A stretch of 18,055 nucleotides of DNA from a virus. Shown one piece after another: positions 2,642-14,426 of this stretch (positions are counted from its first letter, which is position 1; each line of letters opens with the position of its first letter). The notes below the pieces were generated by a model. That model searched no databases and was not told the DNA's origin. It worked only from the letters and a program-made list of their open reading frames with translations. The stretch lies in the UHGV virus genome UHGV-0106651. The stretch is one strand, 5' to 3'. A program made the position numbers and the translations under genes.

Positions 2642-3385
2642 TTAACTGGCTTTCTTTTTCGGGCGTCCACGTTTTGCCGGTGTCACGCTCCGGGTCTTAC
2701 GCGGGGTACGGGTGGCCGCTTTTGGCTGCGGCTCCGGCTTCGGTTTCAGCTCCCGCTCCAGTCGTTCAATCTCTTTTTTGACGCCTGCCTGACAGTCGAG
2801 CTGTGTCGCACGTTGCAGGTGCGCCAGCGCACCGGCGGCATCACCACCGTCACGCAGAAACAGACCGGTGATTTTGTGCAGCTTTGCGCGCACTTCATCA
2901 GGCATGTCAGCAGCGGCAGTCAGTTCAAGGGTCTCCGTCAGCAGGCGGGTATCCACAGACTCACCGGCAGCGTGGGCACGCATGGCCGCAAGCGCGACCT
3001 CCTCGGTGAACATGTACGGCGGGGTGCGGCGGTGTTTACCCGGCATGGTCAGACCGTACTTCAGGGCATAACGGGCAATCTCCAGCGCACCGGCAATATC
3101 GCCGGTATCCAGACGCCACAGCATGACCGTCATCAGAATGTCATCCTGTGCACCTTTGCCCTGCTCCAGCACGCCGTTCACCCACGGCAACCAGAACGGC
3201 AGCAGTTCGCGTTTTTTCGCGGCCTTCAGCTCTTTTGAATAAATCGCTTTCAGTGTGCGCTGGTCTGCGGCGAGCTTAACCAGCATCTGCTCATAGACAG
3301 TTGCATGTCGCAGCGGGGCGGCTTCCCGCTGCGCGGTCATCGCTGCCGAGACCCGCATCATGTGGCGCTGTGCGGGACTCGTCAT
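2642..3385 (-). CDS. M: Terminase small (endonuclease) subunit gpM, 247 aa
   Basis: 247-aa product with a basic C-terminal tail (PKKKAS), in the P2 gpM position after N. Confidence 0.85.
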   Translation of the reverse strand: MTSPAQRHMMRVSAAMTAQREAAPLRHATVYEQMLVKLAADQRTLKAIYSKELKAAKKRELLPFWLPWVNGVLEQGKGAQDDILMTVMLWRLDTGDIAGALEIARYALKYGLTMPGKHRRTPPYMFTEEVALAAMRAHAAGESVDTRLLTETLELTAAADMPDEVRAKLHKITGLFLRDGGDAAGALAHLQRATQLDCQAGVKKEIERLERELKPKPEPQPKAATRTPRKTRSVTPAKRGRPKKKAS

Positions 3386-3388
3386 CGG

Positions 3389-4462
3389 TTACGCTCCCGG
3401 CTCTGCGGTCGCTTTAGCCGGTGTGGAGAAGTCACCGACCTTGATTTTTTCCACCAGACAACCGGCGGCGTAGTCTTCCACCACGTAATCAATGTTCATT
3501 GACTCGTAGTTCTCCACGCGGTCGAGTTTCGGGTTTTCCTCAATCACGCGGCGATGGCTGTCATCCATGTAGTAGATGGACAGGTTTTCCAGCTTCGTGA
3601 TGAGCATCGCATCCGCCGGGAAGTACGGGACGCGTACCGCCGGCAGATTACCGATGCGTTTCTGGCTGATGATGACGTCAGCGGCCAGCATTTCGCTGTT
3701 GTCCTGCTCTTTGTTAACGATGGGGAAATACTTGTCCGCCAGTAGCTGACGCCCCACAATCACCACAAGGTCAGGGTCTTCCTGATACCACGGCTCAATC
3801 AGGTTGTTGGTCGCATCCATCACCAGTGCATCAAGGCTGGCATAATCACCGCCCTTACCCACGCGGATAACCTCAGAGGTGGTGTGCCCTTCCTCGTCAG
3901 TGACCTTGCTCATCACGCGCGCCGGTGCTTCATTGCGGTATTTCTGCAGCCAGCCGACCGCCACATCCTGCAGCATCGGATTACTGCTGCGGTCAGAGGT
4001 TTCGGCACGCTTCACGCCGTTAAAACCGGCCATGATGAAATCAAGGGACTGGCGTTTGATAATGGCATTACGGATACGGAGCTGGAAATCCTGATAACGC
4101 GCCCACAGGTCCAGCGTTTTGTAGCGGATATAAAAATCGAAGTTAACCTGGTCGCATTCGTACTTGTTGGACGCCAGCTTCGAGAAGTCCTTCGGCTGAC
4201 GCTCGGTGCCACCGGCGGTGTCGGTGGTGCTGGCAATGGGGCCGGTGACACCGATACCAATTTTTTCCCCTTTCATTTCGCTGACCGGCACAATGTTGAT
4301 GCGGGTCAGAAAGTCAGAGGACTCCTGCATGGTGTTCATCAGGGTCTGGGTGACCGACGGTTCAACGGTGAATTTTTTCGACACATCACCGGCGTCGATG
4401 CCGTTCAGTTCGGCAACACGGGACAGGTAGGCATTAAATTTTAAACGGGTTTCCTGGCGCAT
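3389..4462 (-). CDS. N: Major capsid protein gpN, 357 aa
   Basis: 357-aa product starting MRQETRLKFNAYLSRVAELNG, the same length as P2 gpN, sitting between O and M. Confidence 0.9.
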   Translation of the reverse strand: MRQETRLKFNAYLSRVAELNGIDAGDVSKKFTVEPSVTQTLMNTMQESSDFLTRINIVPVSEMKGEKIGIGVTGPIASTTDTAGGTERQPKDFSKLASNKYECDQVNFDFYIRYKTLDLWARYQDFQLRIRNAIIKRQSLDFIMAGFNGVKRAETSDRSSNPMLQDVAVGWLQKYRNEAPARVMSKVTDEEGHTTSEVIRVGKGGDYASLDALVMDATNNLIEPWYQEDPDLVVIVGRQLLADKYFPIVNKEQDNSEMLAADVIISQKRIGNLPAVRVPYFPADAMLITKLENLSIYYMDDSHRRVIEENPKLDRVENYESMNIDYVVEDYAAGCLVEKIKVGDFSTPAKATAEPGA

Positions 4463-4520
4463 ATTTGTTCCTGAAATTAAGGGTTAATCGTGAAGGTTTT
4501 CCCGGACTGACTGACGCCGG

Positions 4521-5375
4521 TCAGCAGTTCGTCATCAGGGCGTCTCCGCCACCGCCGGTGGCCTTGCTGCGGCGCTGCTGGGTCAGACTTTCGGTGTGGT
4601 CGAGACTGTTTTTCAGGCGGGTGAATGCCTGGCTGGTTTCATCCGCCCTGTCAGTCACCTCCTGCTTAAGTGCGGAAAAGGCGTTTTCCATCTCAGCGAG
4701 GCGCTGCTCAGTGGCGCTCAGTTTTTCCTGCACATGTTCAGCAACAGCGGTCACCGCTTCATGCACGTCATTCAGACGGGCGTCATCGCTGGCCTGTTTG
4801 CGGCCAAAAATGGATTTCACCTTTTCGGTCAGGGCGGTGAACACGGTTTCAGGCAGGTCTTCAAATTCCAGCTCAACGGGCGTTGCCACTGAAATCAGGT
4901 TTTCAGGGCTTAATTTGAAGCGGTTCAGGGGGTTGTGTTTTGCCGTGCGGCAGAATTCCAGATATTCCGTGCCGAGGCTTGCCGGGTCATCGGTGACGGC
5001 CAGCCCCACCAGATAACATTTGCCGGTGTTGGCAAAGTTCGGCTGAATCTCCATTGAGGTGTAGACCTTCTGCGCGGCCTTGTTCATCGCGATAAGGTCA
5101 TCGGTCGGGGTGATTTTCGCAAACAGCGCCCATTTGCCTTTCAGCGCCGAATCATCGTCAATCTTTTCGGCCTTCAGTTCAGCCACATCACCATAACGCT
5201 TAAAAATACCGTCAGGCAGGATGCCGCGCAGATGTTCCAGGTTAATACGGCAACCATAGACACGCGGGTCAAAGGTTTCGGCCATTTCCTGAATATCCTG
5301 CGCACTGATGACACGCCCGTCACAGGTGTCACCCTCAACGCCGATACGAAAGAATTTTGAGACTTTTTTTGCCAT
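4521..5375 (-). CDS. O: Capsid scaffolding protein gpO, 284 aa
   Basis: Start at the ATG giving MAKKVSKFFRIGVEG, preceded by an AGGA ribosome-binding site. The 284-aa length matches P2 gpO; the track ORF is extended by 22 codons upstream. Confidence 0.85.
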   Translation of the reverse strand: MAKKVSKFFRIGVEGDTCDGRVISAQDIQEMAETFDPRVYGCRINLEHLRGILPDGIFKRYGDVAELKAEKIDDDSALKGKWALFAKITPTDDLIAMNKAAQKVYTSMEIQPNFANTGKCYLVGLAVTDDPASLGTEYLEFCRTAKHNPLNRFKLSPENLISVATPVELEFEDLPETVFTALTEKVKSIFGRKQASDDARLNDVHEAVTAVAEHVQEKLSATEQRLAEMENAFSALKQEVTDRADETSQAFTRLKNSLDHTESLTQQRRSKATGGGGDALMTNC

Positions 5376-5548
5376 TGTCAGGAGTCCTGAATAGTGATTA
5401 GAGGAGTCACATGTCGGCATCAGTTTCCCGACGATGCGCATCCTCCGCCATCAGTCCCGGATGGCTTATCACTGACACAACAGCACCTTAGCGAATCGCG
5501 GGGCGCGACTCAGTAGCCTTGCCGTGTATTCATCACGGCGAGGTATTC
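5376..5548. promoter_or_regulatory. Divergent late-promoter region between O (minus) and P (plus)
   Basis: 173-bp intergenic spacer between divergently transcribed capsid and packaging operons, the position of the P_O and P_P late promoters in P2. Exact promoter and activator sites were not resolved by eye. Confidence 0.5.
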
Positions 5549-7321
5549 ATGACCATCACCACAGACACCACTCTTTTACACGACCCGCGTCGTCAGGCGG
5601 CGCTGCTGTACTGGCAGGGGTTTTCCGTGCCGCAGATTGCCGCCATGTTGCAGATGAAACGCCCGACGGTGCAGAGCTGGAAACAGCGCGACGGCTGGGA
5701 CAGCGTTGCTCCCATCAGCCGTGTCGAAATGAGTCTGGAAGCGCGGCTGACCCAGCTCATCATAAAACCGCAGAAAACAGGCGGTGACTTCAAGGAAATT
5801 GACCTGCTCGGACGCCAGATTGAACGACTGGCACGGGTAAACCGCTACAACCAGACCGGCAACGAGGCAGACCTTAATCCGAACATCGCTAACCGCAACA
5901 AAGGCGGGCGGCGCAAACCGAAAAAGAATTTTTTCAGCGACGAGGCTATCGAAAAGCTGGAGCAGATTTTCTTTGAGCAGTCTTTCGAATATCAGTTGCA
6001 CTGGTATCGCGCCGGGCTTGAGCACCGCATCCGCGATATCCTGAAATCCCGCCAGATTGGCGCGACGTTTTATTTTTCCCGCGAGGCGCTGCTGCGCGCC
6101 CTGAAAACCGGTCATAACCAGATTTTTCTGTCGGCCAGTAAAACGCAGGCGTATGTGTTCCGCGAATACATCATCGCCTTTGCCCGGCTGGTTGACGTTG
6201 ACCTGACCGGTGACCCGATTGTCCTGGGCAATAACGGCGCAAAACTGATTTTTCTCGGCACCAACTCCAACACCGCACAGAGCCATAACGGCGACCTGTA
6301 CGTCGACGAGATTTTCTGGATCCCGAATTTTCAGGTACTGCGTAAGGTGGCATCAGGTATGGCCTCACAGAGCCACCTGCGCTCGACCTATTTCTCCACC
6401 CCGTCCACGCTGGCGCACGACGCCTACCCGTTCTGGTCGGGTGAACTGTTTAACCGGGGACGCGCCAGCGCCGCCGAACGCGTGGAAATCGACGTCAGTC
6501 ATAACGCCCTTGCCGGTGGGCTTCTCTGTGCGGACGGCCAGTGGCGACAGATTGTCACCATTGAGGACGCCCTGAAAGGTGGCTGCACGCTGTTCGACAT
6601 TGAGCAGCTCAAACGCGAAAACAGCGCCGACGATTTTAAAAACCTGTTCATGTGTGAATTTGTTGACGACAAGGCGTCGGTGTTCCCGTTCGAGGAGCTG
6701 CAACGCTGCATGGTCGACACGCTGGAAGAATGGGAAGACTATGCACCCTTTGCCGCCAATCCGTTCGGCTCCCGCCCGGTATGGATTGGTTACGACCCGT
6801 CACACCGTGGCGACAGCGCCGGATGCGTGGTACTGGCACCGCCGGTGGTGGCCGGTGGCAAATTCAGAATACTTGAGCGTCACCAGTGGAAAGGCATGGA
6901 CTTTGCCACTCAGGCTGAATCCATCCGCAAACTCACCGAAAAATATAACGTTGAATACATCGGTATTGATGCCACCGGCCTCGGTGTCGGCGTGTTCCAG
7001 CTCGTGCGCTCGTTCTATCCCGCCGCGCGCGACATCCGCTACACGCCGGAAATGAAAACCGCAATGGTGCTCAAGGCAAAAGACGTTATCCGCCGTGGCT
7101 GTCTGGAATATGACGTCAGCGCCACCGACATCACCAGCTCGTTTATGGCTATCCGCAAGACCATGACCAGCAGTGGACGCAGCGCCACCTATGAGGCCAG
7201 CCGCAGCGAGGAAGCCAGCCACGCCGACCTCGCCTGGGCGACCATGCACGCCCTGTTAAATGAGCCACTCACCGCCGGTATCAGCACCCCGCTGACATCC
7301 ACCATTCTGGAGTTTTACTGA
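5549..7321 (+). CDS. P: Terminase large (ATPase) subunit gpP, 590 aa
   Basis: Start at ATG 5549 (MTITTDTTLL) with GAGGT ribosome-binding site 5 nt upstream. 590 aa; stop overlaps the Q start (TGATG). Confidence 0.9.
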   Translation: MTITTDTTLLHDPRRQAALLYWQGFSVPQIAAMLQMKRPTVQSWKQRDGWDSVAPISRVEMSLEARLTQLIIKPQKTGGDFKEIDLLGRQIERLARVNRYNQTGNEADLNPNIANRNKGGRRKPKKNFFSDEAIEKLEQIFFEQSFEYQLHWYRAGLEHRIRDILKSRQIGATFYFSREALLRALKTGHNQIFLSASKTQAYVFREYIIAFARLVDVDLTGDPIVLGNNGAKLIFLGTNSNTAQSHNGDLYVDEIFWIPNFQVLRKVASGMASQSHLRSTYFSTPSTLAHDAYPFWSGELFNRGRASAAERVEIDVSHNALAGGLLCADGQWRQIVTIEDALKGGCTLFDIEQLKRENSADDFKNLFMCEFVDDKASVFPFEELQRCMVDTLEEWEDYAPFAANPFGSRPVWIGYDPSHRGDSAGCVVLAPPVVAGGKFRILERHQWKGMDFATQAESIRKLTEKYNVEYIGIDATGLGVGVFQLVRSFYPAARDIRYTPEMKTAMVLKAKDVIRRGCLEYDVSATDITSSFMAIRKTMTSSGRSATYEASRSEEASHADLAWATMHALLNEPLTAGISTPLTSTILEFY

Positions 7322-8349
7322 TGAGCAAGAAAAAAGGGAAAACACCGCAACCTGCGGCAAAAACAATGACCGCCAGCACCCCGAAAATGGAGGCATTCAC
7401 CTTTGGTGAGCCGGTGCCGGTACTCGACCGCCGTGACATTCTGGATTACGTCGAATGCATCAGTAACGGCAGATGGTATGAGCCGCCGGTCAGCTTTACC
7501 GGGCTGGCAAAAAGCCTGCGTGCTGCCGTGCATCACAGCTCCCCGATTTACGTCAAACGTAATATTCTGGCTTCAACGTTTATCCCGCACCCGTGGCTTT
7601 CCCAGCAGGATTTCAGCCGCTTTGTGCTGGATTTTCTGGTGTTCGGTAATGCGTTTCTGGAAAAGCGTTACAGCACCACCGGTAAGGTCATCAGACTGGA
7701 AACCTCACCGGCAAAATATACCCGTCGTGGCGTGGAGGAGGATGTTTACTGGTGGGTGCCGTCCTTCAACGAGCCGACACCTTTTACGCCCGGCTCCGTG
7801 TTTCACCTGCTGGAGCCCGATATTAATCAGGAGCTGTACGGCCTGCCGGAATATCTCAGCGCCCTCAACTCTGCCTGGCTGAATGAGTCGGCCACGCTGT
7901 TCCGCCGCAAGTATTACGAAAACGGCGCTCATGCCGGATACATCATGTACGTCACTGATGCCGTGCAGGATCGCAACGATATCGAAATGCTCCGCGAAAA
8001 CATGGTGAAGTCGAAAGGCCGCAATAACTTTAAAAATCTGTTTCTCTATGCCCCACAGGGGAAAGCCGACGGCATTAAAATTATCCCGCTCAGTGAAGTG
8101 GCGACGAAGGACGATTTTTTTAATATCAAAAAAGCCAGCGCCGCTGACCTGCTGGACGCGCACCGCATCCCCTTTCAGTTGATGGGTGGCAAGCCGGAGA
8201 ACGTCGGGTCGCTGGGTGATATTGAGAAAGTGGCAAAGGTCTTTGTCCGCAATGAACTTATCCCGTTACAGGACAGGATCCGCGAGATAAACGGCTGGCT
8301 TAGCACAGAGGTTATTCAATTCAAAAATTACTCTTTAGACACCAATTAG
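7321..8349 (+). CDS. Q: Portal protein gpQ, 342 aa
   Basis: 342-aa product immediately downstream of P on the same strand, ending at the edge of the AT-rich cargo, as expected for the cos-proximal portal gene. Confidence 0.9.
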   Translation: MSKKKGKTPQPAAKTMTASTPKMEAFTFGEPVPVLDRRDILDYVECISNGRWYEPPVSFTGLAKSLRAAVHHSSPIYVKRNILASTFIPHPWLSQQDFSRFVLDFLVFGNAFLEKRYSTTGKVIRLETSPAKYTRRGVEEDVYWWVPSFNEPTPFTPGSVFHLLEPDINQELYGLPEYLSALNSAWLNESATLFRRKYYENGAHAGYIMYVTDAVQDRNDIEMLRENMVKSKGRNNFKNLFLYAPQGKADGIKIIPLSEVATKDDFFNIKKASAADLLDAHRIPFQLMGGKPENVGSLGDIEKVAKVFVRNELIPLQDRIREINGWLSTEVIQFKNYSLDTN

Positions 8350-8395
8350 CCCTAGTGATTATACGATAATTAGCCCTAGTATTATCTAGGGCTAA
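8346..8395. repeat. Three copies of TTAGCCCTAG (two direct, one inverted) forming a 10-bp perfect stem-loop; likely bidirectional terminator between convergent Q and the cargo operon
   Basis: TTAGCCCTAG at 8346-8355 (overlapping the Q stop codon) and 8370-8379; reverse complement CTAGGGCTAA at 8386-8395 with a 6-nt loop. A T-run follows on the plus strand at 8411-8417. Confidence 0.6.
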
Positions 8396-8408
8396 CAATT
8401 ATATAATT

Positions 8409-8981
8409 CTATTTTTTCATATTGTATATAACTTCGCAAACACCCGTCAGTGTTAATCGGCTATAATTTTCCAATGTAAACACAGGATAATCATAAAAAA
8501 CCTCAGGTTCTGGCAATGGCGAACGAACAGTTGTTCTTTTATTTGACTGCATCCTCCTCGACAATTTACTTATTACACCAATGTAACCCACCTTTCTTGA
8601 CAAATGCCCATGTAATTTCAATACAGAATATAGCCACTTACAAAAATGAATGCCAGTAACTATCTGTTTAGCGGCACGATTTGAGTTATAAGACTTAAGA
8701 TCTATTACGATAAAATAATCCATATCCCTGTACGACGTAACAAAAATCCCATCACAAACAGAGGATAGCCCAGTTAAGGTTGAAGATTTTAAAAATTTCC
8801 AAACTGGTTTAGATACACTAGTAGAATCTAACGAAAATCCATATACACCATTTCCATTCACCAATAATTTCTTATTAGCAGAACTGGGATTATCTTCGCA
8901 TATGACCCAACATGCCTGCTCCCGTGTTAATTGAAATGCAGGATCGATGCAATTCTGTATTACACTGATAATATTACTCAT
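8409..8981 (-). CDS. Hypothetical 190-aa protein, second gene of the cargo operon; possible small TOPRIM-like nuclease partner (speculative)
   Basis: ATG at 8979-8981 (reverse complement) overlaps the upstream ATPase stop by 8 nt (ATGAGTAA), indicating translational coupling. AT-rich. Contains WVICEDNPS and RDMDYFIVID, loosely resembling the TOPRIM glutamate and DxD motifs; no confident domain call. Confidence 0.6.
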   Translation of the reverse strand: MSNIISVIQNCIDPAFQLTREQACWVICEDNPSSANKKLLVNGNGVYGFSLDSTSVSKPVWKFLKSSTLTGLSSVCDGIFVTSYRDMDYFIVIDLKSYNSNRAAKQIVTGIHFCKWLYSVLKLHGHLSRKVGYIGVISKLSRRMQSNKRTTVRSPLPEPEVFYDYPVFTLENYSRLTLTGVCEVIYNMKK

Positions 8982-10410
8982 CTGCCCCCTCACTATCAGA
9001 GGAGTTTTCTACTAACGAATAATATATTTCATCATTATCATCATTAATGGCGTTAATTACCTCATCAAAAGTTACAGCATGAATTCCTTCATTTGATTTT
9101 TGCATTTCATTTACAGAACCGCCATCAAATAAATAAGCAGCAACCATGTTAGAATCTAAAATTGAGTCGATGCTAATTCCTTGCTTACGCATTACAGTGT
9201 TTCGTTTTTCAATCATATTTTCAGAAACGCCATGAAGCATCATTAAGCTATTGATTTCCTTGACAAAATAATCACTGTGAGTACTAACAACAACCCGAAT
9301 ACCAGAGTTAACTAATTTTGCCAAAAATCTTGCAATTACTCGCTGATTTGACGGGTGTAAATTTAACTCTGGTTCGTCAATCATTAGAATGTCACCAACT
9401 TTTGCTTGATGTTCTAAATAAAACCATAAACCAAACAAACTCTTAACAGTAGATGACGATAAATGAAGATCAATTTTTTTGCTTGCAGGTGTTTTACCTT
9501 TCTTATATGTAGAAAAGTAAATTTGCCCTTCAGGATCAACCGAATATTTCCCTGATATTATTTTTTTTACTTCTTCTGCCAACTTATGAAATTGGCCATT
9601 TTTATTTTTTCTATTTACCTTAATCTCATTTAGCCAGTCTATATAATTTGCTATAGGAGCAGAATATCTTGACTTCATTACATCCATTAACAGTGAATTA
9701 AGATCGAATTGCTCTTTTGAAGCATGATGCAATAATGTAGTTCTTCTAGAGCTTAATTCATTAAAAAAAAGATGCAATCCATTCCTTTCAGCAGGAATTA
9801 AGAAGGCCGGACTTTCATCATGCTCGATTTTTAATAACTGACTTAGAGTCAAATTTATAAACCCGTCTACTCTTGGAAAAACAGAATCTAGCAGCGTCAT
9901 TTGTATGATATTACTGTTTTCATCTTTGGATAATAGCATTACTTCTTTTTTGCCAGTTCCTATGACGAGGCTAACATCCAGTTTTTTTTCATAAACACTT
10001 GATGTTAATGACTCTTCATCAATAACCCAGTCAAATGTTGAATTAGAAAAAATCTCATTATCATTAGTACTAAACACATCCCTCAGCATTAAAGATGAGC
10101 TTTTATTAAACTCTTTTTTAATTAACGTGAAGTTATTTTTTATCCAGTCAATCACATCTAACTCAAACTTGCCATTTTCACGAAGAGTTTTGGCAAAGTT
10201 TGCTACTTGTGGCAATTTTAAAGATGGTGATGGCATATTTAGGAAGCCATATAACCCATACATAACCCATGTTTTACCAGTGTTATTCTTCCCACATAAA
10301 AGAGTTAAAGGTTTTGCATTAATCTCTCCTGCAGAGATACACCCAATATTTTTAAATGAAAACTTCCATGATGCTAATTTACTTACATTAATTTCACTTT
10401 GCTTTTTCAT
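8974..10410 (-). CDS. ABC-type ATPase of the AAA_21/AAA_15 (OLD/SMC-like) kind, 478 aa; first gene of the cargo operon
   Basis: Walker A LLCGKNNTGKT near the N-terminus, signature-like HLSSSTVKSL, Walker B ILMIDEPELNLHP, H-loop VVVSTHSD. Strong ribosome-binding site AAGGAAG 5 nt before the ATG. Roughly one-third GC by eye, against a visibly GC-richer phage backbone. Confidence 0.8.
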   Translation of the reverse strand: MKKQSEINVSKLASWKFSFKNIGCISAGEINAKPLTLLCGKNNTGKTWVMYGLYGFLNMPSPSLKLPQVANFAKTLRENGKFELDVIDWIKNNFTLIKKEFNKSSSLMLRDVFSTNDNEIFSNSTFDWVIDEESLTSSVYEKKLDVSLVIGTGKKEVMLLSKDENSNIIQMTLLDSVFPRVDGFINLTLSQLLKIEHDESPAFLIPAERNGLHLFFNELSSRRTTLLHHASKEQFDLNSLLMDVMKSRYSAPIANYIDWLNEIKVNRKNKNGQFHKLAEEVKKIISGKYSVDPEGQIYFSTYKKGKTPASKKIDLHLSSSTVKSLFGLWFYLEHQAKVGDILMIDEPELNLHPSNQRVIARFLAKLVNSGIRVVVSTHSDYFVKEINSLMMLHGVSENMIEKRNTVMRKQGISIDSILDSNMVAAYLFDGGSVNEMQKSNEGIHAVTFDEVINAINDDNDEIYYSLVENSSDSEGADE

Positions 10411-10670
10411 TGAACTTCCTTAATCAATCACATACAAATAAAGAAGACCATTGTTCATGTGAAAAATCAATACTTTCGATACTATACTAAATGACTACGA
10501 ACAATAGTGCTTCACTCTCCACCAATCCTGATAGGTTAAGATATATGGGCTGTTTTCTCAAACTTGCCGCGCTGTACTGAGCCTCCTGTATAAGTCATTT
10601 AATATAATGCGCATCCTAACTCTGAAACAGTAAGTTTATCTGTGCTACATTTCCGTTTTGCATGCGCGCA

Positions 10671-10689
10671 GTGCTTTCCCCGCCTCGCC
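10671..10689. other. cos: cos site: the 19-nt cohesive-end sequence of P2/186-type phages (present here as the reverse complement)
   Basis: GTGCTTTCCCCGCCTCGCC at 10671-10689 is the exact reverse complement of GGCGAGGCGGGGAAAGCAC, remembered as the P2 cohesive end. It lies between A and Q as expected for a prophage. Confidence 0.8.
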
Positions 10690-10811
10690 CGCCCGCTTCG
10701 CGGGTCACATTTAATGCAGTTGCATAAAGGCGTCAAAACCACACCGGTACTGGCAACAAGTGACCATAAAAACGGCTTTTGGCACATGCAAAACAATGCA
10801 CCTAATGCACG

Positions 10812-10841
10812 CACACAAAAACGGGGAAAGTCGCTTCCCCC
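10812..10841 (-). terminator. Rho-independent terminator downstream of the 174-aa gene
   Basis: On the minus strand, a GGGGAA/TTCCCC stem with a short loop is followed by GTTTTTGTGTG, about 12 nt after the stop of the 10852..11376 ORF. Confidence 0.6.
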
Positions 10842-10851
10842 ACAAACATTA

Positions 10852-11376
10852 TCAACGCACCGGAATGTAAGATTCAAGGTCTCTGATTACGGCTTGTTTC
10901 AGTGCTTCAGATACAGCCTCAAGTTCTGGCAATGCTGGCTTTTCACTTAAGTTCGTTTCGAATTCCCCGCTTCCTATTACTAGCGTAAAGCCATTTCCAT
11001 CACGTAGCAGTTTCAAAGGAATAATCACGTTTAACTTAGGATGAGCAACCGGTGACTTATCCACTGTAAGGCCAATAAAAAATGACAAAATCCCATCTGC
11101 ATCAGGCAACAGATCGTGTAACTGAACTTTAGATTTTTCACCATCTTTAATTGCAGCGACAAAAACATAATTTTCAGTGGGGTTTTGCCCTGGATAGCCC
11201 CAGCAAGTTTGCTCAAGCTCAAGCGACCCCTCAAAGTTTTTCGCAATCAGCCCAACAATATTTTGTAAACGCTCTTTTTCCTCTCTCTGTAACCGAACGA
11301 TTTCAATATACTTATCTCTTATAGTCTGAAAAGTAATCACTTTAATCTCCTGAAACGGTTTACACAGAAACAGCAT
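10852..11376 (-). CDS. Hypothetical protein, 174 aa; orphan cargo gene on the replication-gene side of cos
   Basis: Uninterrupted ORF with a purine-rich stretch (AGGGGG) before the ATG and its own terminator downstream. No recognisable motifs. GC appears intermediate between the backbone and the ATPase operon. Confidence 0.6.
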   Translation of the reverse strand: MLFLCKPFQEIKVITFQTIRDKYIEIVRLQREEKERLQNIVGLIAKNFEGSLELEQTCWGYPGQNPTENYVFVAAIKDGEKSKVQLHDLLPDADGILSFFIGLTVDKSPVAHPKLNVIIPLKLLRDGNGFTLVIGSGEFETNLSEKPALPELEAVSEALKQAVIRDLESYIPVR

Positions 11377-11439
11377 TTAACCCCCTGATAATATTTCTTT
11401 CAATAATTTTCCTAACACCAAACTGCGCTCGTGGTTCAA

Positions 11440-11478
11440 CCCCGCCAGCCCTGAAAACAAGTTTCACGACTGGCGGGG
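11440..11478 (-). terminator. GC-rich stem-loop just downstream of the 68-aa ORF; possible terminator of the A-containing operon
   Basis: CCCCGCCAG (11440-11448) pairs with CTGGCGGGG (11470-11478); the loop contains a nested TGAAA/TTTCA stem. No clean U-tract follows, so terminator function is uncertain. Confidence 0.4.
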
Positions 11479-11482
11479 TTCT

Positions 11483-11689
11483 CTATCGTCTGCGTGGTGC
11501 TGGCATAACTCTGGACTGACTGATATAGCTAAACCGCCCGTAATTATCCCGGACTATTTCGGCACACCCGACTAGCTCATCGGGCGTCAGATTTTCGTTG
11601 ACCATAATCTGCTGTAGACGCTGAACAATGGCCATCAGCTTGGCGCTTTTGGCGTTATGCTGCGGTATCTCGCCTGGTATTCTGTGCAT
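11483..11689 (-). CDS. Hypothetical small protein, 68 aa, translationally coupled to the upstream DUF3850-like gene
   Basis: ATG at 11687-11689 (reverse complement) overlaps the upstream TAA stop as TAATG. The track ORF 11483..11701 has an earlier in-frame ATG; the coupled start is preferred. Confidence 0.45.
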   Translation of the reverse strand: MHRIPGEIPQHNAKSAKLMAIVQRLQQIMVNENLTPDELVGCAEIVRDNYGRFSYISQSRVMPAPRRR

Positions 11690-12141
11690 TATCCAAGCCA
11701 CCCGTTTTGCTGTGCACGCTCCACCTGTTCATCTGAATAGTTCCATGCTCCATCCGTGGCAACCATTGCCCCGCCAGACATCCCCGTCTCTGGTTCATAC
11801 ATAACAGCAAGGCCGAGCTGATGCATAATTTCATGATTAATTCTGAATATCAGGCCACGCTCACTAAGTTCTTTCCAGTTCACAATCTCATATGCACCTG
11901 TATTAAGCAGCTCAATACTTAGCAAGACATAATCTTCCAGCCAGTCTGACAGGTCAGTAACATCTGTTATCCGGGCTTCAACCTTTCGCCCCGTATACAC
12001 ACCCTGCACCCATTCACGCAAAATCAACGTGTCCCGGCGCTCATAATTACGGTCATTTTTCCGAAACTCTGCACGTTTATGTCCTTCCAGCACAAGGTCG
12101 AAATATTTTGCGTGAAGCTTTACCTCGTGAATTTTTGCCAT
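11689..12141 (-). CDS. DUF3850-like (ASCH/PUA-like fold) protein with a C-terminal HExxH-containing extension, 150 aa
   Basis: Start MAKIHEVKLHAKYFDLVLEGHKRAEFRKNDRNYERRDTLILREW resembles the remembered DUF3850 consensus. C-terminal part contains INHEIMHQLG. Its ATG overlaps the A stop (TAATG). Confidence 0.6.
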   Translation of the reverse strand: MAKIHEVKLHAKYFDLVLEGHKRAEFRKNDRNYERRDTLILREWVQGVYTGRKVEARITDVTDLSDWLEDYVLLSIELLNTGAYEIVNWKELSERGLIFRINHEIMHQLGLAVMYEPETGMSGGAMVATDGAWNYSDEQVERAQQNGWLG

Positions 12142-14426
12142 TATGTCCACTCCATTACTGTTGAGAATCCCAGCCACTCATCAGCGACCGGATACGTGAA
12201 TTTTTTCCCGTCGTAATTTACGGTCGCGCCACGCACCAGCGCCTCAAGCTCCCATCGCTGCGGCCTGATACCGTTCTGAGCAAGGTCAACGCGGATACGG
12301 GTGATTTGCAATCGTTCAGACCTGGTCAGTCTGGCAGATGGTGCAATTTCATGCGGTTTTAACGGGATTCCGTTTCTTTGCTGACGATTTGGTGTTCTCA
12401 GTCCGTGTTTTAATGCGCCCCTGAGCGCCATCACGACCTCCGGGTCACTCCATTCGATAACACCGTCATCTACCAGATTAAGCACTGCTGCGGCGTGCTC
12501 AGAAGGTGTGGGAGCCGGTAACGAAGTATCACCACCGGTGAGCTTTCCACAGTTATTGACAGGACTCCGAGGCGCGGCGATGCCGCTTTTTAAAGTCAAA
12601 GGCTCCACGACCGGCACTTTCGGCACAATGCGCCAGTCCGTCGTTCTGGTGATATGAATATGACGCGCGCCGAGATGCGGCGCGTAAATGCCGACCACTC
12701 TCTCGACCTCTTCCTCGTACTCGTTAACGTCATCCGACGAGCTACGGGCAACCCTGACAGTCTGACAATCGCGCGGGACATTTGCCCCACCCTGCGCGCT
12801 GATATACAGCGCAAAATCGCCACTGTCTGCGGCAGCGCGTGCAGCCTCGACGCGTTCGTCAAACTCATCAGCAATGCTGACACCGCGGGGCAATTTGCGT
12901 AGTTCACGGTAAGCCCCCATTGTCGGCAGGCCAACAGTTTTAAATTGTGGGATACGCCACGTTGACGCCCATGCGGTAACAGCCGCAGCAGTATCTTTCA
13001 GTGGCCTGCCGGTATCGTTATCGAGCTGACCATCCAGTGCATAGCCATCGATGTTTTTTGAGATGTATTTCGCGATATACCCCGCAGCACCGCCCCGATT
13101 AAGATGTTTTGCCTGAAAACGGTTTCGCGCGGCTCCTCTTTCGTCGCCATCCTCTTTAAGCGCATAGCGACGCATGATTTCGATAATCTGGTTACGCTGG
13201 CGTGGATTACAAAAAAGCATCATATGCCAGTGCGGCGTTCCGTCGTGGTGTGGCTCGACGACTCGCAAACCGTAGACCTGTAAATCATTATCCTTGAATG
13301 CCGTGCGCATCAGGCTCCAGATGCGGCAGAGATAACGCTGCGCATCCTTTGGATTAAATGCCTCATCGTTCCAGCCGTGATTAAGCTGGACGGTTTTACT
13401 TTCGCCTTTTCTGACCTGACGTGTCGGGTGATACTTTGACGGCGCGGTCAGCGTGATAAACATCCCCACATCACCCTCTGCGGCAGCGTAACGCTCAATA
13501 CCGGCGATGGTGTTCATCAGCTCCATCCGGCGAATTTCTGGATTAGAAATACTGCCCATCACCTTACTGATAAGGTCGATGCGCTCGCCGGTTTCCCTGT
13601 TTTCAAGGTCACACGATTTAAGAAATTCCAGATTTGCCTGGCGGCGCGCACGCACATCACGAATGGCATGTTTACTGGCATAAGGAGAACGGTCTTTATT
13701 GACCTCCCCGACAGCAATCAGTAACGCCTCATGCCAGCGCATACGCTGGCCTTTAAGCTGATGAGTCCACCATTCATCGTTAAACAGACGGGCAATGGCA
13801 GAATATGCCTGCCTCGTGGTCATCTGCCCTTTACGGTATTTTTTCAAGTAGAGCGGGGAAATATTGAAAGCACGTGCAGCGCCAGCAACATGACCATACA
13901 GGTGAGCCTGCGCCTCATCCGTAAACAGCGATTCTTTTTCGCCATGGGCATCCACCCAGGCATCGCAGAGTTCCTCATACATCATGAAAAGCTGCGATGA
14001 GATACGGGCGGCAAATTTTTTCAGCTCCTTGTCATTCATTCCCGGCAGGCGCGCATAGTGGTCACGCTCTGCCAGAAACAGTAACGACGCGTCGGTGTTC
14101 ATTTCATGGCGCTGATTCACGCGCTCAATGCGCGGCCATAAACGACGCTGAAAAGTGGCTGTGAGGAAATAAAACCCGTGCACCGGGCTTTTATTGCGCC
14201 GGATGTAGTCATAGCGTGAAGTAAACAGCGAGCGCAAAAAGTAAGGCAGGCGATTAATCGTGGATAAAACACCTTGCACCTGACGCATCTCGTCACGTGT
14301 AAGGGGTCTTTCGCGCCCGACGGCCTCGCGTGGCGCGTTCCATGCATAAGCACCGGTAAACGTCTCACCGGTGCCTGCGGCAAATGCTGACGGAGGGACA
14401 AAACGCCCGGAGGCTTTAACGGCCAT
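12141..14426 (-). CDS. A: Replication initiation protein gpA (rolling-circle HUH endonuclease), 761 aa
   Basis: Start at the ATG giving MAVKASGRFVPPSAFAAGTGE, 761 aa as in P2 gpA. HUH motif TPHWHMMLF and tyrosine-pair region YIAKYISK are present. Confidence 0.9.
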   Translation of the reverse strand: MAVKASGRFVPPSAFAAGTGETFTGAYAWNAPREAVGRERPLTRDEMRQVQGVLSTINRLPYFLRSLFTSRYDYIRRNKSPVHGFYFLTATFQRRLWPRIERVNQRHEMNTDASLLFLAERDHYARLPGMNDKELKKFAARISSQLFMMYEELCDAWVDAHGEKESLFTDEAQAHLYGHVAGAARAFNISPLYLKKYRKGQMTTRQAYSAIARLFNDEWWTHQLKGQRMRWHEALLIAVGEVNKDRSPYASKHAIRDVRARRQANLEFLKSCDLENRETGERIDLISKVMGSISNPEIRRMELMNTIAGIERYAAAEGDVGMFITLTAPSKYHPTRQVRKGESKTVQLNHGWNDEAFNPKDAQRYLCRIWSLMRTAFKDNDLQVYGLRVVEPHHDGTPHWHMMLFCNPRQRNQIIEIMRRYALKEDGDERGAARNRFQAKHLNRGGAAGYIAKYISKNIDGYALDGQLDNDTGRPLKDTAAAVTAWASTWRIPQFKTVGLPTMGAYRELRKLPRGVSIADEFDERVEAARAAADSGDFALYISAQGGANVPRDCQTVRVARSSSDDVNEYEEEVERVVGIYAPHLGARHIHITRTTDWRIVPKVPVVEPLTLKSGIAAPRSPVNNCGKLTGGDTSLPAPTPSEHAAAVLNLVDDGVIEWSDPEVVMALRGALKHGLRTPNRQQRNGIPLKPHEIAPSARLTRSERLQITRIRVDLAQNGIRPQRWELEALVRGATVNYDGKKFTYPVADEWLGFSTVMEWT

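What the first reader, a model, noticed from the sequence alone, without database searches (positions are those of the whole stretch)
8350..12140. cos site located mid-cargo: accessory genes sit on both sides of the cohesive-end site
Seen in sequence: the 19-nt string at 10671-10689 is the exact reverse complement of the remembered P2 cohesive end GGCGAGGCGGGGAAAGCAC. About 2.3 kb of AT-rich cargo (the ATPase operon) lies between it and the Q stop, and about 1.45 kb of further non-core sequence (the 174-aa gene, the 68-aa ORF and the DUF3850-like gene) lies between it and A. Inference: in a virion the ATPase operon would be the left genome end and the 174-aa gene the right end, so both are packaged and carried to new hosts. 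As recalled, Q lies close to cos in P2, so the ATPase operon looks like an insertion at that junction.
Basis: partly seen in the sequence, partly recalled or inferred. Interest (0 to 1): 0.55.

Follow-up and report, generated by a model that had tools for sequence, protein, structure and literature searches.

The report
P2 cos site inside known defence hotspot
This is the normal DNA-cutting (cos) site of a P2-type prophage, flanked on both sides by swappable accessory-gene cassettes, an arrangement that is real but already described and catalogued, so it is ordinary.

Summary
Window 10671-10689 is, on the minus strand, an exact copy of the P2 19-nt cohesive end. It sits in the 55-bp P2-family cos core (10664-10718) between portal gene Q and replication gene A. 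The terminase proteins are 98.8% (gpM) and 99.5% (gpP) identical to P2's.

The 2.3 kb on the Q side (8343-10663, GC 30-36%) replaces the about 170 bp that P2 and 186 have there. It carries a PD-T4-4-like ATPase plus nuclease defence operon. On the A side only about 0.67 kb (10757-11422, an orphan 174-aa gene) is variable. The 68-aa ORF and the DUF3850 gene are backbone shared with relatives.

The layout is common:
- 31 of 78 species-representative P2-like prophages have at least 500 bp between Q and cos.
- 18 of 75 are loaded on both sides.

The two cassettes assort independently in E. coli, with breakpoints at the cos core edges.

This is already known. The gpA-gpQ cos-proximal hotspot was described by Rousset 2022 and Vassallo 2022. 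The cosL-Q position has been cited as a hotspot since 1996-1999, and phiCTX carries ctx there. This gene arrangement, with four matching protein accessions, is listed in Rousset's supplementary table.

Cleavage at this site is inferred, not shown.

The parts
7321..8349 (+). Portal gene Q (342 aa). It is the conserved anchor on the left of the hotspot.
   Evidence: Pfam Phage_portal. The protein is 97.4% identical to P2 gpQ, and the C-terminus differs (..SLDTN* against ..SLDTDND*). Nucleotide homology to P2 ends at 8342.
8343..10663 (.). Q-side variable cassette (2321 bp). It replaces P2 bases 27-199.
   Evidence: blastn breakpoints against P2, L004, L088 and L089. GC is 0.30-0.36. The cassette is present in 19 of 5426 E. 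coli genomes.
8358..8407 (.). Inverted repeat (22-nt arms, 6-nt gap) between the Q stop and the stop of the convergent nuclease gene. It is probably a bidirectional terminator standing in for P2 tQ.
   Evidence: the repeat finder I1. The simple terminator scan did not call it. The role is inferred.
8409..8981 (-). PD-T4-4_B-like gene (190 aa from the ATG; 194 aa from the upstream GTG at 8993). It is a putative PD-(D/E)XK nuclease effector.
   Evidence: PADLOC PD-T4-4_B E=5e-12. phrog_14491 E=1.4e-109. The RefSeq gene model is 190 aa. An ..IVIDLK.. motif is visible in the translation. PD-T4-4 is classed as a PD-(D/E)XK nuclease-NTPase system in 10.1101/2025.07.10.664194.
8974..10410 (-). PD-T4-4_A-like ABC-type ATPase (478 aa). 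Its end overlaps the start of the nuclease gene by 8 nt.
   Evidence: PADLOC PD-T4-4_A E=1.6e-111, full length. Pfam AAA_15 4.5e-26 and AAA_21. Walker A (GKNNTGKT) and MIDEPELNLHP are visible.
10411..10663 (.). AT-rich leader of the defence operon. It belongs to the Q-side cassette and ends 7 bp from the nick site.
   Evidence: It is shared at about 87-90% identity with the E. coli W prophage cassette. No confident promoter was called on the minus strand. No Rfam match.
10664..10718 (-). 55-bp P2-family cos core.
   Evidence: 55-bp blastn match to P2 26..33546 at 90.9%. The 55-bp core of Ziermann and Calendar 1990 is cited in PMC9594776 and PMC5694545. Columns -7 to about +54 are near-invariant in 80 sequences.
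10671..10689 (-). 19-nt cohesive-end sequence GGCGAGGCGGGGAAAGCAC. It is the predicted site of the staggered terminase cut.
   Evidence: Exact match. P2 cosL/cosR annotation. Record termini of several sequenced relatives coincide with both ends.
10719..10790 (.). Extended conserved flank on the A side of cos. It includes TTTAATGCAGTTGCAT, a CCAG..CTGG patch and a GCATGC-like patch. It is probably part of the terminase recognition region.
   Evidence: Column conservation in 76-80 loci. blastn homology extends to 10726-10756 in L003, L005 and L089. The function is inferred.
10757..11422 (.). A-side variable cassette (about 0.67 kb).
   Evidence: Breakpoints against L003, L004 and L089. It is present in only 7 of 5426 E. 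coli genomes, and 4 of those lack the Q-side cassette.
10821..10843 (-). Terminator-like hairpin followed by a T run, just after the 174-aa gene.
   Evidence: scan_promoters_terminators: 10-bp stem, 5 GC pairs, then TTTTTGTGTGC.
10852..11376 (-). Orphan 174-aa gene of unknown function, transcribed in the same direction as A.
11438..11480 (.). Hairpin (19-nt arms, 89% complementary) just downstream of the 68-aa ORF. It marks the backbone edge of the A-side cassette.
   Evidence: the repeat finder. Homology to relatives resumes at 11423-11427.
11483..11689 (-). 68-aa ORF, a candidate counterpart of Wphi gp92. It is backbone, not cargo.
   Evidence: phrog_11386 E=6.2e-38. The stretch is conserved in Wphi, 9W, vB_YpM_50 and H10, and gp92 is annotated under the Wphi match. 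RefSeq gene model.
11689..12141 (-). DUF3850/ASCH + DUF7415 gene (orf91 homologue, 150 aa). It is backbone.
   Evidence: Pfam DUF3850 8e-17, DUF7415 2.3e-14, ASCH 1.2e-09. P2 orf91 sits in the same position. RefSeq gene model.
12141..14426 (-). Replication gene A. It is the conserved anchor on the right of the hotspot.
   Evidence: Pfam Phage_GPA 6.8e-123. 96.8% nucleotide identity to P2 A. RefSeq gene model.

Best explanation
The window is a P2-type (Peduovirus) prophage drawn in the reverse of the P2 map.

- **cos site.** Window 10664-10718 is its ordinary cos site. After replication, the P2-type terminase (gpM and gpP) should make staggered nicks at the two ends of the 19-mer 10671-10689 and produce 19-nt 5' cohesive ends.
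- **Position.** The cos site lies inside the known gpA-gpQ 'defence hotspot'. Here the hotspot consists of two separate moron cassettes, one on each side of cos.
- **Q side (virion left end).** This cassette is a foreign, AT-rich PD-T4-4-like operon with an ABC-type ATPase sensor and a PD-(D/E)XK nuclease effector. It is presumably expressed from the prophage to exclude other phages.
- **A side (virion right end).** This cassette is a single orphan 174-aa gene with its own terminator.
- **Exchange.** Each cassette is bounded by the conserved cos core on one side. On the other side the bounds are the 3' end of Q for the Q-side cassette and the backbone hairpin at 11438-11480 for the A-side cassette. 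These conserved edges could serve as homology arms, so that each cassette can be swapped independently between related prophages.
- **Why cargo can sit so close to the nick on the Q side.** The sequence conserved for cos extends only 7 bp beyond the 19-mer towards Q. Towards A it extends about 36 bp strongly and patchily to about 120 bp.

**Shown here:** sequence identity, anatomy, breakpoints, frequencies and family assignment of the operon.

**Inferred:** actual cleavage, expression, defence activity and the recombination mechanism.
For: - **cos identity.** The 19-mer is exact and the 55-bp core matches P2. Record termini of sequenced relatives fall at 10671 and 10689.
- **Terminase.** gpM is 98.8% and gpP 99.5% identical to P2.
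- **Prophage state.** The same prophage in E. coli UTAK-5 has the full P2 core gene set.
- **Cassettes.** Breakpoints lie at 8342/10663-10664 and at 10756/11423. GC is 0.30-0.36 on the Q side.
- **Operon family.** PADLOC PD-T4-4_A 1.6e-111 and PD-T4-4_B 5e-12.
- **Independent assortment.** The Q-side cassette is in 19 E. coli genomes and the A-side cassette in 7, and only 3 genomes have both. Strain TB06052 pairs the same A-side cassette with a different 645-aa ATPase next to Q.
- **Generality.** 31 of 78 loci have at least 500 bp between Q and cos, and 18 of 75 are loaded on both sides.
- **cos asymmetry.** The top-base frequency is 0.99 at -7..-1. At -50..-8 it is 0.39-0.56, and at +19..+54 it is 0.86-0.90.
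- **Literature.** Rousset 2022 (PMC9122126) describes the gpA-gpQ cos-proximal hotspot. Vassallo 2022 (PMC9519451) calls it hotspot #1. phiCTX carries ctx between cosL and Q. PMC5694545 cites Dodd and Egan 1996 and Nakayama 1999 for the cosL-Q hotspot.
- **Prior listing.** Rousset's supplementary file 6 lists one locus with WP_052918729 + WP_137541457 + WP_072126211 + WP_052918735 + WP_052918731. Four of these five accessions are the ones annotated on the identical region in UTAK-5.
Against: - No experimental data exist for this element. Cleavage, inducibility and expression are all untested.
- The core differs from P2 at 5 of 55 positions. All five lie outside the 19-mer, and where the window differs from P2 in the A-side flank it mostly matches the family majority.
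- No convincing sigma-70 promoter was found for either cassette.
- The PD-T4-4_B match is modest (5e-12). The original PD-T4-4 came from an ICE-like element, not from a P2 prophage.
- The UTAK-5 copy has an IS1 and a truncated tail-fibre-assembly gene outside the window, so that copy may not make infective particles.
Confidence: 0.9

Rival explanations
1. The 19-mer is a relic. Replacing the P2 sequence between cos and Q (P2 bases 27-199) destroyed part of the packaging signal, so the prophage is packaging-defective and cos merely marks a decaying junction.
For: P2 bases 27-199 are absent. The UTAK-5 copy carries an IS1 in the tail-fibre region. No isolated phage in the phage collection carries this ATPase; the only hits are three Vibrio phage records at 29% identity.
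Against: In 76 related loci nothing beyond 7 bp on the Q side is conserved, whether the junction is short or long. 31 of 78 loci carry at least 500 bp there. The viable phage phiCTX has ctx in that position. All terminase and head genes are intact and 97-99% identical to P2. The core and the A-side flank are conserved.
Confidence: 0.06
2. The direction is reversed. Cargo next to Q is ancestral, and P2, 186 and other short-junction phages lost it by deletion, so the operon is not an insertion.
For: Direction cannot be read from pairwise alignment. Long junctions are frequent, at 31 of 78 loci.
Against: The short junction of 149-250 bp is the majority state (45 of 78). It is shared by P2 and by 186, which is placed in a different genus, each with a terminator in the same place. 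The cassette has 30-36% GC in a 51-60% GC backbone. It occurs in only 19 of 5426 E. coli genomes, although 2131 have a match somewhere in the 8300-12200 region. Different long junctions carry unrelated genes.
Confidence: 0.05
3. The flanking cassettes are not anti-phage cargo. The ATPase pair could be an addiction or toxin-antitoxin-like module, or serve the phage's own life cycle. The 174-aa gene could be a phage regulatory or anti-defence gene.
Against: The ATPase gives a full-length PADLOC match to PD-T4-4_A at 1.6e-111 and has the cognate B partner. PD-T4-4 was recovered in an experimental selection for anti-phage defence systems. It was also chosen for defence assays in a later preprint. 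The locus is the most defence-rich site of P2 prophages.
Confidence: 0.12

Closest known systems
Bacteriophage P2 cos site (cosL/cosR, AF063097) and the 55-bp P2/P4/186 cos core (Ziermann and Calendar 1990)
   Same: The 19-nt cohesive-end sequence is identical. 50 of 55 core positions match. It occupies the same position between Q and A, and the terminase proteins are nearly identical.
   Different: P2 has only 167 bp, including terminator tQ, between cos and Q, and it keeps its cargo (tin, old) on the A side only. Here tQ and the whole 27-199 stretch are replaced by a 2.3-kb cassette.
P2 defence hotspot between gpA and gpQ (Rousset et al. 2022, PMC9122126; 'hotspot #1' of Vassallo et al. 2022, PMC9519451; Odegrip et al. 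2006)
   Same: It has the same anchors, the same cos-proximal position, high turnover among near-identical prophages and a recognised defence system. The gene arrangement is listed in Rousset's supplementary file 6.
   Different: The text read from those papers treats the gpA-gpQ interval as one hotspot. Here the interval resolves into two cassettes separated by the cos core, and the two assort independently.
Cargo between cosL and the portal gene in other P2-family phages: ctx of Pseudomonas phage phiCTX, ORF1-4 of Ralstonia phage phiRSY1, and retrons Ec67/Ec86 in 186-related prophages (Dodd and Egan 1996; Nakayama 1999; PMC5694545)
   Same: Foreign genes occupy the interval between the cos nick and the end of the portal gene, and they have their own terminators.
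   Different: The cargo differs (a defence ATPase/nuclease operon rather than a toxin, vgr-like genes or a retron), the host differs, and the gene orientation is opposite to ctx.
PD-T4-4 anti-phage system (Vassallo et al. 2022)
   Same: It is a two-gene operon with an ABC-type ATPase (AAA_15/AAA_21) and a small PD-(D/E)XK-type partner. Both PADLOC models hit.
   Different: The original system was found in an ICE-like element, not in a P2 prophage. The match to the B protein is weak (5e-12). Activity of this homologue is untested.

Membership tests
P2-family cos site | 19-nt cohesive-end sequence GGCGAGGCGGGGAAAGCAC (or a close variant) | tested here: met
   Exact match at 10671-10689 on the minus strand. 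It is identical to the annotated P2 cosL/cosR.
P2-family cos site | Embedded in the roughly 55-bp core conserved among P2, P4 and 186 | tested here: met
   10664-10718 aligns to the P2 junction over 55 bp at 90.9%. The block is near-invariant in 80 sequences. The 55-bp core is cited.
P2-family cos site | Lies between the portal gene (Q) and the replication gene (A) of a P2-like genome that has cognate terminase genes | tested here: met
   Gene order and Pfam assignments. gpM is 98.8% and gpP 99.5% identical to P2.
P2-family cos site | Physical genome ends of related virions map to the ends of the 19-mer | tested here: met
   Linear record termini of P2, L-413C, P37, fiAA91-ss, MET_P1_103_31, Wphi, HQ103 and P2_AC1 align to window 10671 or 10689.
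P2-family cos site | Cut by terminase in vivo to give 5' 19-nt overhangs in this element | not testable with these tools
   This needs virion DNA end sequencing or read pile-ups from an induced culture.
P2 gpA-gpQ defence hotspot | Variable gene content between conserved gpA and gpQ anchors in otherwise near-identical prophages | tested here: met
   Backbone identity is 94-98% while the cassettes are unrelated. The cassettes occur in 19 and 7 of 5426 genomes.
P2 gpA-gpQ defence hotspot | Contains recognisable anti-phage systems | tested here: met
   PADLOC PD-T4-4_A/B. The arrangement is listed in the P2 hotspot table of Rousset et al..
PD-T4-4 defence system | ABC-type P-loop ATPase (A protein) with Walker A and Walker B motifs | tested here: met
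   PD-T4-4_A 1.6e-111 over 2-458 of 460. AAA_15 and AAA_21. GKNNTGKT and MIDEPE are visible.
PD-T4-4 defence system | Adjacent PD-(D/E)XK nuclease partner (B protein) in the same operon | tested here: inconclusive
   PD-T4-4_B gives only 5e-12. An IDLK motif preceded by an aspartate is visible, but the fold and catalytic residues were not modelled. The 8-nt gene overlap supports co-translation.
PD-T4-4 defence system | Confers resistance to phage infection | not testable with these tools
   This needs cloning and plaque assays.

The most novel reading that the evidence does not exclude
- The gpA-gpQ 'hotspot' may really be two hotspots hinged on the cos core.
- Each side would then be exchanged on its own. 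Exchange might start from the cohesive ends made by terminase and be resolved in the conserved Q 3' end or at the backbone hairpin downstream of the A-orf91-gp92 genes.
- The asymmetric cos signal (7 bp towards Q, tens of bp towards A) would fix where cargo may begin.
- Capsid capacity would couple the two sides. Cargo lengths on the two sides correlate negatively (rho -0.35, p=0.002).
- In addition, the orphan 174-aa gene, with only about a dozen relatives in 1.84 billion representatives, could be an undescribed single-gene defence or counter-defence factor.
Probability: 0.35. Interest if true: 0.35.

Novelty: already known. Interest (0 to 1): 0.12.

Why it matters
It matters little as a discovery. 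It confirms in one more prophage that P2-type phages carry interchangeable accessory and defence genes right next to their packaging site. Such genes therefore travel with the virion to new hosts.

The small useful additions are practical:
- Exact cassette boundaries are now available for this element.
- Cargo on the Q side can start 8 bp from the nick.
- The two sides recombine independently. This could help anyone who mines P2 hotspots for new defence genes or designs P2/P4 cosmids.
- The 174-aa orphan gene is a cheap candidate to test for anti-phage activity.

Tried and rejected
1. The two mechanical ORFs that span cos (10599-10877 minus strand, 10642-10950 plus strand) have no family hits and were treated as spurious.
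2. An Rfam scan of 8300-12200 at E<=1 found nothing, so no retron-type or other known RNA lies next to cos.
3. No assignment was possible for the 174-aa protein.
   - Pfam, PADLOC and NCBIfam gave no hit.
   - A PDB profile search gave nothing below E=0.078.
   - The afdb50 fold library was unavailable.
4. P0004, the top hit of the exhaustive search (2487 aa, 23 matched stretches), is a tandem-repeat translation artefact. It was left out of the alignment.
5. None of the 80 species-representative loci carries a homologue of the PD-T4-4-like genes or of the 174-aa gene. No isolated phage in INPHARED carries a close copy of the ATPase.
6. Odegrip et al. 2006 (PMC1367236) is not held. Ziermann and Calendar 1990 could be cited only through papers that cite it. 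My recollection that about 125 bp is required for cos function is unverified.
7. The promoter scan found no more sites than shuffled sequence gives (14 against 12.3), so no promoter is claimed.

Full report
**1. Observation**

The string GGCGAGGCGGGGAAAGCAC occurs once in the window, on the minus strand at 10671-10689, with no mismatch. Even with three mismatches allowed, shuffled sequence gives 0.01 matches on average. The P2 reference record AF063097 annotates this same 19-mer as cosL (1-19) and cosR (33575-33593).

- Q ends at 8349, 2321 bp from the 19-mer.
- The stop codon of A is at 12141, 1451 bp from the 19-mer.

GC is 0.30-0.36 across 8400-10499, against 0.51-0.60 in P, Q and A. The recollection about P2 is also right. 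In P2 the Q stop is at 187 and terminator tQ is at 160-181. In phage 186 the Q homologue ends at 196 and tW is at 164-187.

**2. What the region is**

The window is a P2-type prophage in the reverse of the P2 map. The order is: head genes, then P (+), Q (+), the hotspot, A (-), the early genes and int (+).

Against the circularised P2 junction:
- Homology runs from inside P to window 8342 (P2 base 200).
- It reappears for 55 bp at 10664-10718 (P2 26 back to 33546, 90.9% identity).
- It resumes at 11921 in orf91 and A.

The 55-bp block corresponds to the core that papers citing Ziermann and Calendar 1990 describe as shared by P2, P4 and relatives. The terminase subunits are 98.8% (gpM) and 99.5% (gpP) identical to P2's, and the portal is 97.4% identical. 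P2 specificity is therefore expected.

Several independently sequenced relatives have linear records that end at the positions matching window 10671 or 10689:
- P2, L-413C, P37, fiAA91-ss (annotated cosR) and MET_P1_103_31 align to 10671.
- Wphi, HQ103 and P2_AC1 align to 10689.

Cleavage in this particular element remains an inference.

**3. The two flanks**

*Q side (8343-10663).* Two overlapping minus-strand genes match the PADLOC models of PD-T4-4.
- The 478-aa ATPase matches PD-T4-4_A at E=1.6e-111 over its full length. It also matches Pfam AAA_15 and AAA_21, and Walker A and DEPE motifs are visible.
- The 190-aa partner matches PD-T4-4_B at E=5e-12 and shows an IDLK-type motif.
- PD-T4-4 came out of an experimental selection for anti-phage systems, where it sat in an ICE-like element (PMC9519451). 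It is classed as a PD-(D/E)XK nuclease-NTPase system (10.1101/2025.07.10.664194).
- A 22-nt-arm inverted repeat (8358-8407) lies between the convergent Q and nuclease genes. It takes the place of P2's tQ.
- The cassette even supplies the last codons of Q (..SLDTN* against ..SLDTDND*).

*A side.* Comparison with phages 9W and vB_YpM_50 and with E. coli H10 shows that homology resumes at 11423-11427.
- The hairpin at 11438-11480, the 68-aa ORF and the DUF3850/DUF7415 gene (P2 orf91) are backbone. Phage Wphi has gp91 and gp92 annotated under its match to this stretch.
- Only 10757-11422 is variable. It holds a terminator-like hairpin (10821-10843) and the 174-aa gene.
- That protein has no Pfam, PADLOC or NCBIfam match. 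Its only family hit is an unknown-function PHROG.
- It has three clusters in 5.8 billion proteins. The exhaustive search listed 12 hits, of which the top one is spurious.

**4. How common the layout is**

I fetched 80 species-representative loci that encode a Q relative. In each I located the Q stop, the cos 19-mer (up to 5 mismatches allowed) and the A stop.
- Of 78 loci with Q and cos, 45 have 149-250 bp between them.
- 31 have at least 500 bp, up to 4244 bp.
- cos to A ranges from 427 to 4951 bp, with a median of 2118.
- 18 of 75 loci have at least 500 bp on the Q side and at least 1000 bp on the A side.
- The two lengths correlate negatively (Spearman rho -0.35, p=0.002). This would fit a capsid-size budget, although that explanation is an inference.

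Column conservation anchored on the 19-mer is asymmetric.
- The seven bases on the Q side (GCGCGCA) are near-invariant.
- Beyond them conservation drops to background, whether the junction is short (0.56) or long (0.39).
- On the A side conservation stays at 0.86-0.90 for 36 bp, with further patches out to about +118.

This explains why cargo can begin 8 bp from the nick on the Q side. It also argues against the idea that replacing P2 bases 27-199 disabled cos.

**5. Independent assortment**

Among 5426 complete E. coli genomes:
- The whole 3.9-kb region is present in three, at 100% identity.
- The Q-side cassette is in 19: those three plus 16 with a variant at about 87% identity, including E. 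coli W.
- The A-side cassette is in 7: those three plus four at 97-99%.
- Only the three identical genomes have both cassettes.

Strain TB06052 combines the same A-side cassette with a different 645-aa ATPase next to Q. The E. coli W prophage combines a related Q-side cassette with an A side that has no annotated gene between cos and A and shares no homology with the window between 10726 and 12163. In these comparisons the breakpoints fall at 10663-10664 and at 10726-10756, the edges of the cos core. The core therefore acts as a conserved hinge between two separately exchanged cassettes.

**6. Comparison with what is known**

- Rousset et al. [quoted passage not shown] They found 1,650 arrangements in 18,150 loci and noted that many hotspots hold more than one system. 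They speculated that cohesive ends promote the exchange (PMC9122126).
- Vassallo et al. 2022 call this site P2 defence hotspot #1.
- A 2026 survey of 8165 P2-like prophages confirms it (PMC13586616).
- The narrower cosL-Q position was already proposed as a place where foreign genes are picked up. PMC5694545 says so, citing Dodd and Egan 1996 on retrons and Nakayama 1999 on phiCTX.
- The phiCTX record shows ctx at 362-1222, between cosL (1-21) and Q (1417-2469).
- Rousset's supplementary file 6 lists a locus with WP_052918729 + WP_137541457 + WP_072126211 + WP_052918735 + WP_052918731. Four of these five accessions are the ones annotated on the identical region of E. coli UTAK-5.

The finding is therefore a correct reading of a catalogued instance of a known phenomenon.

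**7. Verdict**

1. The A-side cargo is about 0.67 kb, not 1.45 kb.
2. The event is a replacement rather than a simple insertion.
3. That both sides are packaged is trivial for a cos phage.

Novelty: already known. The only modest additions are the hinge-like behaviour of the cos core, the asymmetric cos footprint, the negative length correlation and the untested 174-aa orphan gene. Interest is low.

Noticed in passing
window 8344-8356 and 8367-8379: The 13-mer AATTAGCCCTAGT occurs twice, 23 bp apart. The first copy contains the Q stop codon, and the second forms the left arm of the inverted repeat 8358-8407. It might be a junction duplication left by the cassette exchange, or simply part of the terminator structure.
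   Followed up: partly
window 10664-10790 and loci L008-L087: The conserved cos footprint is strongly asymmetric. It covers 7 bp on the Q (left-end) side. On the A (right-end) side it covers about 36 bp, plus patches (a CCAG..CTGG palindrome near +66..+84 and GCATGC near +112..+118). This suggests the terminase-binding part of cos lies entirely on the right-end side.
   Followed up: partly
loci L008-L087 (survey of 75 loci): Cargo length on the Q side and on the A side of cos correlate negatively (Spearman rho -0.35, p=0.002). The total Q-A gap ranges from 1170 to 6954 bp with a median of 3155. This would fit a shared packaging-size budget.
   Followed up: partly
[not shown]
   Followed up: no
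L094 (E. coli UTAK-5) 2659-5391, outside the window: In a host carrying the identical hotspot, a RES-family NAD+ phosphorylase gene lies between the tail-sheath gene and the tail-fibre genes, where I recall the second P2 hotspot (Z/fun) to be. Next to it are an IS1 and a truncated tail-fibre-assembly gene. That prophage copy may therefore be defective for tail fibres.
   Followed up: no
L088 (E. coli TB06052) 2998-4935: A different Q-side cargo, a single 645-aa AAA-family ATPase, is paired with the same A-side 174-aa cassette. It was not classified.
   Followed up: no
protein P0004: The top hit of the exhaustive protein search is a 2487-aa tandem-repeat translation with 23 weak matched stretches. 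It is an artefact of summed repeat scores, not a relative of the 174-aa protein.
   Followed up: yes
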